Shown: in pieces, positions 320-1,738 of the stretch | Position numbering within the stretch: position 1 is the first letter of the stretch | Layout: each line of letters starts with the position of its first letter | IMG/VR virus record: IMGVR_UViG_2695420343_000001 | Length of the DNA: 16,436 bases | DNA from: a virus | Lineage: Monodnaviria; Loebvirae; Hofneiviricota; Faserviricetes; Tubulavirales; Inoviridae | Reading direction: 5' to 3' (one strand) | Made by a program: the position numbers and the translations under genes | The notes under the pieces: model-generated | The model's input: the letters and a program-made list of their open reading frames with translations, nothing else | Told to the model about the DNA's origin: nothing | The model's database searches: none

Positions 320-691
320 TTATAGTTTATTCGTAACCAGCATTTTTTCAGTCGCTATACCACCATGGATAAATCCATATTGGAGCAACCATTTTTGTAA
401 TGCGTTCACATCTTGGAATAACGCTTCAACACCACTAGACTTTGATAGATAAGCAGCAAGATTTCTCTCTGTGCTTTCAAATGGGTCATCAACTTCCATA
501 TTAGGATTATTATTGATAAATACGTACTCACCACTTTCATTTTTTTGTATTGATGCGCTATCAATTATAAGGCTAATGTGTTCATTTATTGCATTAAGCG
601 CTTCAAATTCAATCGTATATGGAAAGTTTCTTAAATAGTGGCTTCTGATTATGTCGTATATTCCTTGACGGCTATAAAGTTGATTTTTCAT
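320..691 (-). CDS. Hypothetical soluble protein, 123 aa (cargo cassette gene 3)
   Basis: ORF from the track. Strong RBS (AGAGGAG about 7 nt upstream of the ATG on the minus strand). No TM segment. AT-rich. I recognise no family. Confidence 0.65.
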   Translation of the reverse strand: MKNQLYSRQGIYDIIRSHYLRNFPYTIEFEALNAINEHISLIIDSASIQKNESGEYVFINNNPNMEVDDPFESTERNLAAYLSKSSGVEALFQDVNALQKWLLQYGFIHGGIATEKMLVTNKL

Positions 692-736
692 CCTTACTCC
701 TCTACTTGTTTTGCTTCGATATAAAGTGTATTTAAA

Positions 737-1204
737 TCAATATGTTATATGTAAAACAATTTCATTATCATCCTTGAAATCGTCATCCCACATTAGTCTT
801 ACAGTAAATTTCCTTGCTCGACCTAACTCTCCTGACGCAATGAGATCGACTGGTTGATCTGTCGCGAGATACTCAAGCGGAAATTTGCTTTTAACGTCAC
901 TCATTGATACTGGTGAATTATTATCGGGAAATTCTATTCTTACATTTTTCGCAGAAACCTTCCCTTTATTAATAACTCTTAGTTTATATTCTCTATTTCC
1001 TACAGAGACCATGCTTGCACTAATATCAGCTTTCTTTGAACTTTCCAACTCATTTTTTTCTTTAGTAAGTTGGAGATTCGTTAACCTTTCTTGCGCTTCT
1101 ATTAACGCTTTTTGTCTTTCATTGAACTTTACGGTTTTAATTGTTGCATAGATTGAGAGAAAAAACGCCAAACCACCAAACACATCGCCAAGAGATACTG
1201 TCAT
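737..1204 (-). CDS. Hypothetical N-terminally membrane-anchored protein, 155 aa (cargo cassette gene 2)
   Basis: ORF from the track. One N-terminal hydrophobic helix (GDVFGGLAFFLSIYATI), then a charged coiled-coil-like stretch (ERQKALIEAQERLTNLQLTKEKNELESSKK), then a C-terminal domain. RBS AAGGG upstream. Confidence 0.65.
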   Translation of the reverse strand: MTVSLGDVFGGLAFFLSIYATIKTVKFNERQKALIEAQERLTNLQLTKEKNELESSKKADISASMVSVGNREYKLRVINKGKVSAKNVRIEFPDNNSPVSMSDVKSKFPLEYLATDQPVDLIASGELGRARKFTVRLMWDDDFKDDNEIVLHITY

Positions 1205-1315
1205 TATTTAACCCTTATATGTTTTGACTTACTCTCTATAGTTGATTGCTATTTAACCGCTTGCGGTTCGGGGTTCAGTGACACCCGAACTTTACCGTGG
1301 TTTCCCGCGGCGGAG

Positions 1316-1738
1316 TTACCAGTAATATGACTTTCTTCTGTGCCACCAATAAAGTAGGCCGTATCCGACGATAAGAATCCCGAAGAACATCAGCGACATT
1401 CCCCAGCCAGTTCCGTACCACGAAACCATATCATCGAAAACTAACCCGCCCATTTCACGAACTCCGGCTGCTTCCTTAAGAATTGGTTTGAATACCGGAA
1501 TCAGAAGGGCGATCGCAAGTGGAGCACCCCAGCGAACAAGACCAGTTTCCATTTTGATCCCGAAAAAGATCCCCGCACCGACAACAAGCAACCAGACTAT
1601 CAGGCCAGGCGCAGTTTCCAGTGCTGTTTGCCATTCAACATCGAAAGTTTTCATTAGCCAGGCAACAACTGCCAGACAGAAAGCAAATACGCCCACGACA
1701 ACCAGTTCAACGCCGCTTGTTTCGTTATTTCTACTCAT
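1316..1738 (-). CDS. Hypothetical integral membrane protein, 140 aa, about 4 predicted TM helices (cargo cassette gene 1)
   Basis: ORF from the track. Hydrophobic stretches at roughly residues 11-29, 45-61, 70-83 and 113-131; Trp/Tyr-rich C-terminus (LLYWWHRRKSYYW). RBS AGGA about 8 nt upstream. Visibly more GC-rich than the two genes downstream. Confidence 0.65.
   Translation of the reverse strand: MSRNNETSGVELVVVGVFAFCLAVVAWLMKTFDVEWQTALETAPGLIVWLLVVGAGIFFGIKMETGLVRWGAPLAIALLIPVFKPILKEAAGVREMGGLVFDDMVSWYGTGWGMSLMFFGILIVGYGLLYWWHRRKSYYW

What the first reader, a model, noticed from the sequence alone, without database searches (positions are those of the whole stretch)
320..1738. Three-gene leftward cargo cassette of unknown function between attP and the phage repressor
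Three co-oriented genes (a 140-aa ~4-TM membrane protein, a 155-aa single-TM protein with a coiled-coil-like segment, and a 123-aa acidic soluble protein) occupy the slot where filamentous phages usually carry non-essential cargo (toxins, TA or exclusion modules). None resembles a core inovirus replication, coat or assembly protein. Each has its own RBS. The first gene is visibly more GC-rich than the two AT-rich genes after it, suggesting mosaic acquisition. The cassette is bracketed by a perfect hairpin upstream (1781-1809) and a terminator-like hairpin downstream (258-289). A small membrane-plus-soluble module next to the repressor is the pattern expected for superinfection exclusion, abortive infection/defence or lysogenic conversion, but the actual function is unknown. 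The same cassette is at 9677-11095 in copy 2.
Basis: partly seen in the sequence, partly recalled or inferred. Interest (0 to 1): 0.75.

Follow-up and report, generated by a model that had tools for sequence, protein, structure and literature searches.

The report
Mosaic cargo arm of E. coli filamentous prophage
The three genes are real accessory cargo of a chromosome-integrated filamentous phage of E. coli, but they are a patchwork: one phage-specific membrane protein plus two-thirds of a mobile three-gene module that elsewhere sits among anti-phage defence genes and has here lost its zinc-binding partner gene.

Summary
Three co-oriented leftward ORFs (123, 155 and 140 aa) lie between the phage attachment site and an RstR-like repressor. 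They sit in a tandem, dif-integrated CUS-1/YpfΦ-type inovirus next to E. coli hipBA, and copy 2 repeats them exactly.

The slot is variable. Related prophages carry an AbiJ-like/HEPN gene there, or three unrelated ORFs.

The "cassette" is not one unit.
- The 140-aa 4-TM protein is an Enterobacterales inovirus accessory gene that travels with the regulator arm.
- The 155-aa protein (DUF8453: N-terminal anchor, long helix, β-sandwich) and the 123-aa protein are the remains of a module: Zn-ribbon (ECs_2282 family), DUF8453, 123 aa.
- The Zn-ribbon–DUF8453 pair is translationally coupled in every complete Proteobacterial locus examined. Its neighbours include restriction, Abi, Gabija-like and PARIS-like genes and integrases.
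- In this window the Zn-ribbon gene has been cleanly deleted, and the 155-aa gene kept its ribosome-binding site.

The downstream "terminator" is the tip of the folded attP. The upstream hairpin belongs to the conserved regulator block.

The most likely role is defence-type, membrane-acting cargo, possibly rewired or disabled; this is not shown. The slot is a known kind; the Zn-ribbon–DUF8453 link appears to be new. Interest is moderate.

The parts
222..318 (.). Phage attP. It consists of two inverted dif-like XerC/XerD sites (GGTGCGCATAA… on +, GGTTCGCATAA… on -) flanking a 17-bp G+C-rich tip hairpin at 258-289.
   Evidence: The ssDNA fold is -32.5 kcal/mol with z = -7.6, and 0 of 200 shuffles fold as well. 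The block is shared at 90-99% by every E. coli and Y. enterocolitica cassette variant aligned. YpfΦ is described as having paired inverted Xer sites (PMC4266046).
320..691 (-). 123-aa acidic soluble protein of an uncharacterised family. Its stop codon lies within a few bases of attP.
   Evidence: ORF. No Pfam, NCBIfam or PADLOC hit; matches PHROG 22661, function unknown. An exhaustive HMM search found 45 cluster representatives, most of them full-length proteins of about 110-145 aa. It sits next to attP even at 46-50% identity. dN/dS is 0.14-0.33. The AF2 model is unusable, pLDDT 45.
737..1204 (-). 155-aa DUF8453-family protein: a weak N-terminal membrane anchor, a long helix (residues 5-56) and a C-terminal β-sandwich.
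1205..1220 (-). Scar of the deleted Zn-ribbon gene. The junction AAAACAT|ATAAGG lies between 1219 and 1218. The last 15 nt of the lost gene survive, including the TAAGGG ribosome-binding site of the 155-aa gene.
   Evidence: Alignment to Raoultella, ColV-plasmid and Salmonella UPφ-type loci, all of which carry the 88-89-aa ECs_2282-family gene at this position.
1263..1310 (+). A 48-nt conserved non-coding element containing two small hairpins, lying between the two cargo modules. The NC101/NGF1-type cassette breakpoint (~1291) falls inside it.
   Evidence: 96% identical to the phage If1 major intergenic region, and 93% to an intergenic region of Alteromonas phage phiAFP1. Also present in a Y. 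enterocolitica inovirus. ssDNA fold.
1316..1738 (-). 140-aa four-TM membrane protein. It is an Enterobacterales inovirus accessory gene that travels with the regulator arm.
   Evidence: ORF. Four hydrophobic segments. Matches PHROG 4174, function unknown. The family is restricted to Enterobacterales. It sits next to the regulator in CUS-type, UPφ-type, Y. enterocolitica and gut-metagenome inoviruses, with different distal cargo, and stands alone in Mixta and Lonsdalea, near glsB. dN/dS is 0.07-0.18.
1770..1839 (-). Conserved block downstream of the repressor. It holds the perfect hairpin at 1781-1809 (10-bp stem, then UUCUUUAUU) and is the right-hand recombination boundary of the whole cargo slot.
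   Evidence: Homology resumes here in the F11-type cassette, and the block is shared by both phage backbones. RNA fold.
1838..2284 (-). 148-aa HTH_3/RstR-like repressor. This is context, not cargo.
   Evidence: Pfam HTH_3 at 1.6e-9; NCBIfam phage_RstR, weak. UPφ-type phages carrying the same cassette have a 60-aa ORF here instead.
9677..11095 (-). Copy 2 of the same three genes in the second tandem prophage.
   Evidence: Identical ORFs. No mismatch at an offset of 9357 nt.

Best explanation
This is the variable accessory arm of a dif-integrating CUS-1/YpfΦ-type inovirus. It lies between attP and the repressor and is read leftward, in the same direction as the repressor.

Shown: it is a mosaic of two independently exchangeable modules.
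- Module 2 (about 1291-1770) encodes a 140-aa 4-TM protein. This protein is confined to Enterobacterales inoviruses and stays beside the regulator whatever cargo follows it.
- Module 1 (321 to about 1290) encodes a 155-aa DUF8453 protein and a 123-aa acidic protein.
- In relatives, module 1 is a three-gene unit: an ECs_2282-family Zn-ribbon protein, then DUF8453, then the 123-aa protein.
- The Zn-ribbon–DUF8453 pair is translationally coupled. It is spread across Proteobacteria on integrative elements, plasmids and IS-flanked segments, among restriction, Abi, Gabija-like and PARIS-like genes.
- In this window the Zn-ribbon gene has been deleted, and the 155-aa gene kept its ribosome-binding site.

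Inferred: module 1 is defence-type cargo, that is, anti-phage or anti-mobile-element.
- DUF8453 would be a membrane-tethered effector or scaffold, with its helix and β-sandwich in the cytoplasm (positive-inside rule).
- The Zn-ribbon protein would normally act as its cytoplasmic sensor or regulator.
- The Zn-ribbon-less form seen here would then be a rewired, constitutive or partly disabled derivative that is still carried because it costs little.

The cassette moves between phage backbones by recombination between co-resident tandem prophages, using attP and the 1770-1839 block as homologous flanks.
For: Slot variability and breakpoints:
- NC101/NGF1-type prophages keep the 140-aa gene and replace 155+123 with an STM4504/CBY_0614 protein. 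That protein has AbiJ_NTD4 plus the HEPN-like DUF7014 and hits PADLOC PDC-S32 at 4.5e-10.
- F11 replaces all three genes with 230-, 91- and 46-aa ORFs.
- The identical cassette sits in both CUS-type and IKe-like UPφ-type backbones.

Loss of the Zn-ribbon gene is the derived state:
- A Salmonella UPφ-type prophage has HTH, 139 aa, Zn-ribbon (88 aa), 155 aa and 122 aa in that order.
- A divergent gut-metagenome inovirus keeps all four genes at only 38-46% identity.
- ColV plasmids and Raoultella have Zn-ribbon, 155 aa and 123 aa.
- The deletion junction was mapped.

Breadth of the pair:
- 34 loci were found among GTDB species representatives.
- All 32 loci where the upstream sequence is available have an 86-108-aa protein with two CxxC motifs ending at, or overlapping, the DUF8453 start.
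- That protein matches NCBIfam NF047912 above its curated cut-off.

Defence association:
- Neighbours include Gabija-like OLD/UvrD, AbiEii/DUF6088, an Abi_C protein, an AAA+/S8 peptidase pair and integrases.
- Among 138 neighbours of 20 loci there are type I R subunits (3), Mrr (2), ResIII (4), AriA-like (3), PbeA (3), RmrA/capP-like (3-4), PDC-S06 (3), integrases (3) and MobA (3).
- The Zn-ribbon protein hits the PADLOC candidate PDC-M14A at 3e-8, and also HEC-08 and PDC-S64.

Other support:
- All three genes are under purifying selection.
- Precedent exists: the accessory hotspot beside the regulator in Vibrio inoviruses is enriched for defence (PMC11630473), and the Pf KKP module is another case (PMC11341870).
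Against: - No experiment and no expression data are available.
- No promoter-like site was found for the cassette on the minus strand, and the repressor is followed by a terminator-like hairpin.
- None of the three window proteins matches a validated defence family. The only PADLOC hit, PDC-S57 at 3e-4, covers 36 residues.
- The defence association is guilt by association, without a genome-wide baseline.
- The partner that is conserved everywhere else is missing here, so this copy may be non-functional.
- The Zn-ribbon-less cassettes differ by less than 1%, so constraint since the deletion cannot be measured.
- The 123-aa and 140-aa families are inovirus-restricted and may serve the phage itself.
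- The full cassette is rare, present in 15 of 5426 complete E. coli genomes.
Confidence: 0.5

Rival explanations
1. Superinfection exclusion or phage-serving membrane functions. The 140-aa and 155-aa membrane proteins (with the 123-aa protein) would block entry, replication or assembly of competing filamentous phages, for example through TolQRA or pili. Alternatively they would buffer the envelope stress of chronic virion extrusion. Either way they benefit the resident inovirus rather than acting as general defence.
For: - The genes sit directly after the repressor.
- Two of the three proteins are predicted to be membrane-associated.
- The 140-aa and 123-aa families were found in inovirus settings: inside prophages, beside an attP remnant in IS-captured copies, or standing alone in Mixta and Lonsdalea.
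- YpfΦ lysogens show only partial immunity to superinfection, and tandem arrays of different backbones compete at dif (PMC4266046).
Against: - The Zn-ribbon–DUF8453 pair is common outside inoviruses, in integrase islands and on plasmids of many Proteobacteria that show no filamentous-phage genes.
- Prophages with entirely different cargo are maintained equally well as tandem arrays.
Confidence: 0.2
2. A toxin-antitoxin or addiction module. DUF8453 would be a membrane toxin and the upstream, translationally coupled Zn-ribbon protein its antitoxin, stabilising the prophage or plasmid.
For: - It is a two-gene, overlapping operon with the small gene first.
- It lies on conjugative plasmids, integrative elements and IS-flanked segments.
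- Zn-ribbon antitoxins exist, and there is a weak NCBIfam similarity to the MqsA family.
Against: - The Zn-ribbon gene is deleted here while the 155-aa ORF stays intact, keeps its ribosome-binding site, and is found on hundreds of contigs.
- A toxin neutralised only by the Zn-ribbon protein could not persist in that state, unless the 123-aa protein is the real antidote or the gene is silent.
Confidence: 0.12
3. Decaying or neutral hitch-hiking cargo. After the Zn-ribbon gene was lost, the 155- and 123-aa genes became functionless passengers. They would be spreading only because the cassette is flanked by recombination-proficient homologous blocks in a successful phage.
For: - The partner gene that is conserved everywhere else has been deleted.
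- The cassette is rare.
- All Zn-ribbon-less copies are at least 99.3% identical, which points to recent clonal spread.
- The estimated dN/dS on the window branch is about twice that on the ColV branch (0.12 against 0.06, derived).
Against: - No frameshift or stop codon occurs in any copy examined.
- The deletion preserved the ribosome-binding site.
- The cassette has been transferred intact between two phage backbones and four host genera.
- dN/dS on the window branch is still far below 1.
Confidence: 0.13
4. Lysogenic conversion or a virulence-fitness factor for extraintestinal E. coli. This would parallel the modest in-vivo fitness effect reported for CUS-1 and YpfΦ.
For: - The hosts include ExPEC, APEC and clinical isolates.
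- The Zn-ribbon-containing version lies on ColV virulence plasmids near iss.
- CUS-1 and YpfΦ contribute to host fitness in animals by unknown genes (PMC4266046).
Against: - The proteins have no signal peptide, secretion signal or toxin-like domain.
- The core pair is widespread in environmental Proteobacteria.
- YpfΦ and CUS-1 are reported to carry different ORFs in this slot (PMC4266046).
Confidence: 0.05

Closest known systems
Variable attL-side accessory region of CUS-1/YpfΦ and UPφ filamentous prophages (Gonzalez 2002; Derbise & Carniel 2014, PMC4266046; Shapiro & Putonti 2020, PMC7307601)
   Same: - The phage backbone and the dif/hipBA location are the same, and the prophages are in tandem arrays.
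- Leftward ORFs of unknown function lie between the dif-derived end and the RstR-like regulator.
- These ORFs are reported to differ between otherwise 99%-identical phages.
   Different: - The published descriptions name other ORFs (YPO2271/2272; orf1/orf1a; h3-h5).
- UPφ901 is only 7.56 kb, so its own cassette is smaller than this one.
- I could not show that any published ORF equals these three.
- The modular breakpoints, the lost Zn-ribbon gene and the link to defence islands are not described in those papers.
Accessory-gene hotspot of Vibrio filamentous prophages, beside a transcriptional regulator and enriched for defence systems (PMC11630473); the Pf prophage KKP module (PMC11341870)
   Same: - One defined variable locus in a small integrated inovirus, next to a regulator.
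- Cargo is exchanged between close relatives.
- Some cargo is defence-related. Here the alternative cargo is an AbiJ-like/HEPN protein.
   Different: - The host clade and the phage lineage differ.
- The cargo here matches no validated defence system.
ECs_2282-family Zn-ribbon (NCBIfam NF047912) + DUF8453 gene pair; PADLOC candidate PDC-M14 (component A)
   Same: - The 155-aa protein is a clear member of the family that always follows the Zn-ribbon gene.
- The Zn-ribbon partner resembles PDC-M14A at 3e-8.
   Different: - The window lacks the Zn-ribbon gene.
- The 155-aa family hits no PDC-M14 component, so the pair is not PDC-M14 itself.
- No experimental function is known for any of these.
CTXΦ attP(+) forked hairpin and ctxAB cargo
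   Same: - The integration logic is the same: inverted Xer sites that fold in ssDNA, with host XerCD and no integrase.
- Non-essential cargo sits at the ends of the prophage.
   Different: - In CTXΦ the toxin cargo is at the other end, after zot.
- Here the cargo lies between attP and the repressor and has no toxin similarity.

Membership tests
   No Pfam or NCBIfam hits. The PHROG hits are to families of unknown function. A full core gene set is present separately on the + strand.
Inovirus accessory (moron) hotspot | The locus varies between otherwise near-identical prophages and has conserved flanks | tested here: met
   Three different cargos lie between attP (222-320) and the 1770-1839 block in E. 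coli, and a fourth in Y. enterocolitica.
Inovirus accessory (moron) hotspot | Expression from the prophage during lysogeny | not testable with these tools
   The consensus scan found no promoter-like site on the minus strand. A terminator-like hairpin follows the repressor. No transcript data are available.
Zn-ribbon (ECs_2282, NF047912) + DUF8453 two-gene module | A DUF8453-family protein (anchor, KFNERQ helix, β-sandwich with the SKFPxE motif) | tested here: met
   The 155-aa protein aligns end to end with the family and keeps all invariant residues. There are 34 GTDB loci. A homologue carries the PGAP name DUF8453.
Zn-ribbon (ECs_2282, NF047912) + DUF8453 two-gene module | An upstream, translationally coupled protein of about 90 aa with two CxxC motifs | tested here: not met
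   Absent from the window. A deletion scar lies at 1205-1220. The protein is present in all 32 distant loci where the upstream sequence is available.
PADLOC candidate system PDC-M14 | Both components match the PDC-M14 profiles | tested here: not met
   Only the Zn-ribbon proteins of relatives hit PDC-M14A, at 3e-8. The 155-aa family hits no PDC-M14 model.
Validated anti-phage defence system | A match to a named system, or experimental protection | tested here: not met
   No named PADLOC system matches. Protection assays cannot be run here. The association rests only on gene neighbourhoods.
Type II toxin-antitoxin | The toxin cannot persist without its cognate antitoxin gene | tested here: inconclusive
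   The 155-aa gene persists intact without the Zn-ribbon gene. This argues against Zn-ribbon as antitoxin, but the 123-aa protein could substitute. Toxicity was not tested.
Xer activation factor (XafT-like) of IMEX elements, considered for the attP-adjacent 123-aa protein | A DUF3653/HTH domain, and a requirement for integration | tested here: not met
   No Pfam hit at E ≤ 1. Prophages lacking the 123-aa gene integrate as tandem arrays with the same attP.

The most novel reading that the evidence does not exclude
The ECs_2282 Zn-ribbon–DUF8453 pair is a previously unrecognised, widespread membrane-acting anti-phage or anti-mobile-element system. In Enterobacterales inoviruses it would be extended by the 123-aa and 140-aa proteins. 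The dif-integrating filamentous phages of E. coli and Salmonella would then be a shuttle that swaps such systems, and AbiJ-like genes, between phage backbones at the chromosome terminus. The Zn-ribbon-less cassette in this window would be a natural "sensor-deleted" allele that reveals how the effector is controlled.
Probability: 0.3. Interest if true: 0.65.

Novelty: new member of a known kind. Interest (0 to 1): 0.45.

Why it matters
CUS-1/YpfΦ-type phages are linked to the fitness of ExPEC and of pandemic Y. pestis, yet the function of their end-located ORFs is an acknowledged open question (PMC4266046).

Three things follow from showing that this arm is a recombination-driven cargo slot carrying Abi-like genes and a piece of a widespread defence-island gene pair:
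1. It gives that question a concrete, testable form.
2. It nominates an uncharacterised two-gene family (NF047912 + DUF8453) for defence screening.
3. It offers a natural partner-deleted allele as a genetic handle.

It also shows that ColV virulence plasmids carry a fragment of an inovirus, with half an attP, captured between ISNCY copies.

Tried and rejected
- **Family scans.** Pfam, NCBIfam, PADLOC and PHROGs scans of the three proteins gave no informative family.
- **PDB sequence searches.** Profile searches for the 155-aa and 123-aa families and a single-sequence search for the 140-aa protein gave only chance-level hits.
- **Structure of the 123-aa protein.** The AF2 model had pLDDT 45, so no fold search was attempted.
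- **Rfam.** A scan of 1-2600 found nothing above chance.
- **PDC-S57.** The hit of the 155-aa protein covers only the anchor and juxtamembrane helix and was not reproduced by homologues, so it was rejected as membership.
- **Equating the three genes with the published UPφ901 ORFs h3-h5.** UPφ901's 7.56-kb length is too short to hold this cassette, and ECONIH2 is not among the 15 genomes with the full cassette. This was left open.
- **Constraint since the Zn-ribbon deletion.** There are too few substitutions among the Zn-ribbon-less copies to test it.
- **Locus search with the broad 123-aa alignment.** The search for related loci failed for lack of a conserved stretch. A narrower alignment worked.
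- **Literature.** Searches for ECs_2282, DUF8453, PDC-M14, PDC-S32 and PDC-S57 found nothing.
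Full report
**What the window is.** The window is E. coli chromosome. The end of hipA is followed by a dif-derived junction and then two tandem copies of a 9357-nt filamentous prophage. 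The copies are identical from position 222 onward. The same sequence occurs at 100% identity in several complete E. coli genomes, such as MS8345, where it lies directly after hipBA. The rightward genes form a complete inovirus core: gII, gV, a small membrane protein, g8, a 570-aa g3-like protein, g6 (DUF2523), Zot/gI and a secretin. The leftward 148-aa HTH_3 protein is RstR-like. This matches the published CUS-1/YpfΦ organisation, which includes tandem integration at dif and ORFs of unknown function at both ends (PMC4266046).

**Check of the observation.**
- The ORFs are at 320-691, 737-1204 and 1316-1738 on the minus strand, and copy 2 repeats them.
- Each gene has a Shine-Dalgarno-like motif.
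- The GC step is real: 48.0% for the 140-aa gene against 35.3% and 33.3% for the other two, with GC3 of 47.5% against about 27%.
- Both hairpins exist.
- The genes are real. Each exact protein is seen on hundreds of contigs from E. coli, Salmonella, Klebsiella and Citrobacter, and dN/dS against homologues is 0.07-0.33.

**The hairpins are not brackets of the cargo.** Positions 222-318 fold, as single-stranded DNA, into one long forked hairpin of -32.5 kcal/mol with z = -7.6. The fold is made of two inverted dif-like sites, GGTGCGCATAA… on the + strand and GGTTCGCATAA… on the - strand. This is the attP architecture described for YpfΦ and CTXΦ (PMC4266046). It may also terminate leftward transcripts, since a U-run follows it on the RNA. 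The upstream hairpin at 1781-1809 lies in a block (1770-1839) that is conserved in every cassette variant and in both phage backbones. It therefore belongs to the regulator module and looks like the repressor's terminator.

**The slot is variable and the cassette is composite.** Left arms of related prophages were aligned to find the breakpoints.
- *Left boundary.* It is always at 320/321, the end of attP.
- *NC101/NGF1-type prophages.* Homology resumes at about 1291. The 140-aa gene is kept, and 155+123 are replaced by a 309-aa STM4504/CBY_0614 protein. That protein has AbiJ_NTD4 plus the HEPN-like DUF7014 and hits PADLOC PDC-S32 at 4.5e-10.
- *E. coli F11.* Homology resumes at about 1770. 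All three genes are replaced by ORFs of 230, 91 and 46 aa with no informative hits.
- *Different backbone, same cassette.* The identical three-gene cassette also sits in IKe-like UPφ-type prophages. These have different coat, g3, g6, Zot and secretin genes and a 60-aa ORF in place of the HTH repressor (PMC7307601).
- *F11 array.* It holds three tandem prophages of two backbones with shuffled cassettes. This is direct evidence that cargo is exchanged by recombination between co-resident phages at dif.
- *Frequencies.* Among 5426 complete E. coli genomes, 15 carry the full cassette at 99.4% identity or more. Roughly 120 more carry only the 140-aa module.

**The 140-aa protein.** It has four hydrophobic segments and no family match other than a PHROG of unknown function. 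Its family is confined to Enterobacterales, down to 52% identity by sequence search and 38% in a gut-metagenome inovirus. It lies immediately after the regulator in CUS-type, UPφ-type, Y. enterocolitica and gut-metagenome inoviruses, followed by different distal cargo. It also occurs alone in Mixta and Lonsdalea, close to the glutaminase gene glsB; these copies are plausibly prophage remnants. I read it as a semi-core accessory gene of this inovirus group. Its function is unknown.

**The 155-aa protein and the missing gene.** AF2 (pLDDT 74.8) predicts one continuous helix over residues 5-56 followed by an eight-strand β-sandwich. The first ~20 residues of the helix are moderately hydrophobic and are followed by a basic KT.KFNERQK motif. 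By the positive-inside rule the bulk of the protein would be cytoplasmic; this is an inference. Fold searches return only generic Ig-like domains.

The family reaches far beyond inoviruses.
- There are 34 loci among GTDB species representatives. Most are Proteobacteria, with a few MAGs assigned to other phyla.
- tblastn finds 98 plasmids, including E. coli, Klebsiella, Acinetobacter and Cupriavidus.
- In all 32 loci where the upstream DNA is available, the gene is preceded by an 86-108-aa protein with two CxxC motifs. That protein's stop overlaps or abuts the start of the 155-aa homologue.
- This partner matches NCBIfam NF047912, "ECs_2282 family putative zinc-binding protein", above its curated cut-off.
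- A 155-aa homologue on a ColV-type plasmid is now named "DUF8453 domain-containing protein" by PGAP.

Closer relatives show the ancestral inovirus arrangement.
- A Salmonella UPφ-type prophage has HTH, 139 aa, Zn-ribbon (88 aa), 155 aa and 122 aa.
- A divergent gut-metagenome inovirus keeps the same four genes at 38-46% identity.
- ColV plasmids, a few E. coli chromosomes and Raoultella carry Zn-ribbon, 155 aa and 123 aa at 81% nucleotide identity. The segment is flanked by ISNCY transposase genes and still carries half of the attP.

Aligned against these, the window has a clean deletion of the Zn-ribbon ORF. The junction AAAACAT|ATAAGG lies between 1219 and 1218. The deletion leaves the last 15 nt of the gene, which hold the 155-aa gene's ribosome-binding site. 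Loss of the Zn-ribbon gene is therefore derived and specific to this cassette lineage. In complete E. coli genomes the version with the Zn-ribbon gene is the commoner one: about 80 genomes, mostly on plasmids, against 15.

**The 123-aa protein.** The word-indexed search found only close relatives. The exhaustive profile search found 45 cluster representatives, most of them full-length proteins of about 110-145 aa, sharing an N-terminal MKN…Y..IR..Y…FP motif and a C-terminal WL…GFI…ATEKML motif. None is encoded beside the distant DUF8453 genes. Wherever I could see its context, its stop codon lies within a few bases of attP or an attP remnant, even at 46-50% identity. It thus appears to be an inovirus-linked family that joined the Zn-ribbon–DUF8453 pair only in enterobacterial phages. 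It is not needed for integration, because prophages without it form the same tandem arrays. The AF2 model was too poor to use, with pLDDT 45.

**Why I favour a defence-type role for module 1.**
- The Zn-ribbon–DUF8453 pair sits in classic defence-island settings. One contig has Gabija-like OLD-TOPRIM/UvrD, AbiEii/DUF6088 and an Abi_C protein around it, next to an integrase. Alcaligenaceae islands have an AAA+/S8-peptidase pair, AlpA and an integrase.
- Scanning 138 neighbours within ±4 kb at 20 non-redundant loci found type I R subunits (3), Mrr (2), ResIII (4), AriA-like (3), PbeA (3), RmrA/capP-like M78-HTH proteins (3-4), PDC-S06 (3), a Cap17-like protein, integrases (3) and MobA (3).
- The Zn-ribbon protein resembles component A of the PADLOC candidate PDC-M14 at 3e-8, and also segments of HEC-08 and PDC-S64.
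- The alternative cargo in the very same slot is AbiJ-like.
- A variable locus beside the regulator of Vibrio inoviruses has been reported as enriched for defence systems (PMC11630473).

None of this is experimental. I had no genome-wide baseline for the neighbourhood counts. The window's copy lacks the conserved partner.

**A constraint from the deletion itself.** The 155-aa ORF persists intact on hundreds of contigs without the Zn-ribbon gene. The Zn-ribbon protein is therefore unlikely to be the sole antidote of a constitutively toxic DUF8453. It fits better as a sensor or regulator. Alternatively the 123-aa protein neutralises DUF8453, or the gene is silent. A three-taxon decomposition of the values puts dN/dS on the window branch at about 0.12, against about 0.06 on the ColV branch. 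That is modestly relaxed but still strongly purifying, and dS is near saturation. The Zn-ribbon-less copies differ by less than 1%, so selection since the deletion cannot be assessed.

**Verdict.** The region is a known kind of feature, an inovirus accessory hotspot, and its variability in CUS-1/YpfΦ and UPφ phages has been noted before with function unknown. Four things add interest:
- the two-module anatomy with mapped breakpoints;
- the recognition that 155+123 are a partner-deleted copy of a mobile Zn-ribbon–DUF8453–123 module;
- the breadth of the Zn-ribbon–DUF8453 pair and its defence-island company;
- the finding that ColV plasmids carry an inovirus-derived fragment of it.

I rate interest as moderate (0.45). 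The candidate defence pair is worth testing, but the copy in this window may be the least informative allele of it.

Noticed in passing
window 1263-1310 (copy 2: 10620-10667): A 48-nt non-coding element with two small hairpins. It is 96% identical to part of the phage If1 major intergenic region and 93% to an intergenic region of Alteromonas phage phiAFP1. It is also present, at a different place in the left arm, in a Y. enterocolitica inovirus. Such conservation across distant hosts suggests an ssDNA cis-element, for example a minus-strand origin or priming site or a packaging signal. One cassette breakpoint falls inside it.
   Followed up: partly
window 318-322; L073-L076, L011, L062 downstream of the 123-aa homologues: The stop codon of the 123-aa gene lies within a few bases of the inner dif-like site of attP in every homologue seen, down to 46% identity. 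IS-captured copies on ColV plasmids and in Raoultella still carry half of the attP, truncated after TTCAACATA. These plasmid modules therefore derive from an inovirus.
   Followed up: partly
L004 (E. coli F11 chromosome, NZ_CP076123.1 1643949-1667564): Three tandem filamentous prophages of two different backbones lie at dif: UPφ-type, UPφ-type and CUS-type. They carry two different cargo cassettes in shuffled combinations, a natural snapshot of cassette exchange between co-resident inoviruses.
   Followed up: partly
L002 10123-11052 (E. coli NGF1/NC101 prophage, same slot): The alternative cargo is a 309-aa STM4504/CBY_0614 protein with AbiJ_NTD4 plus the HEPN-like DUF7014 (PADLOC PDC-S32). 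It is an Abi-like gene carried by the same phage in a colibactin-producing mouse/human E. coli lineage.
   Followed up: partly
L056 9001-9411 (Mixta intestinalis); L060 9001-9423 (Lonsdalea quercina): Stand-alone homologues of the 140-aa membrane protein with no phage genes around them, a few kb from the glutaminase gene glsB. They look like surviving remnants of decayed dif-integrated inoviruses.
   Followed up: no
L073 1135-4562: A 123-aa homologue with an attP remnant lies next to a 742-aa protein with a JAMM/JAB motif at its C-terminus and a 399-aa protein. I judged by eye, without a profile search, that this pair might be E1-like plus metallo-β-lactamase-like, resembling ubiquitin-like or CBASS-associated defence gene pairs.
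   Followed up: no
window 8798-9046 and 9192-9440 (+ strand): Two 82-aa rightward ORFs lie after the secretin gene at the other end of the prophage. This is the position where the literature places YPO2280a/YPO2281-like ORFs of unknown function, a second accessory region. They were not examined.
   Followed up: no
window 222-1839 against near-identical cassettes (L003, L004, L078, L066, L067): In five of the six diverged near-identical copies, 5-9 of the 7-12 substitutions fall in the ~360 nt of non-coding sequence rather than the ~1260 nt of coding sequence. The sixth (IMG/VR contig L065) has none there. The positions were not mapped.
   Followed up: no
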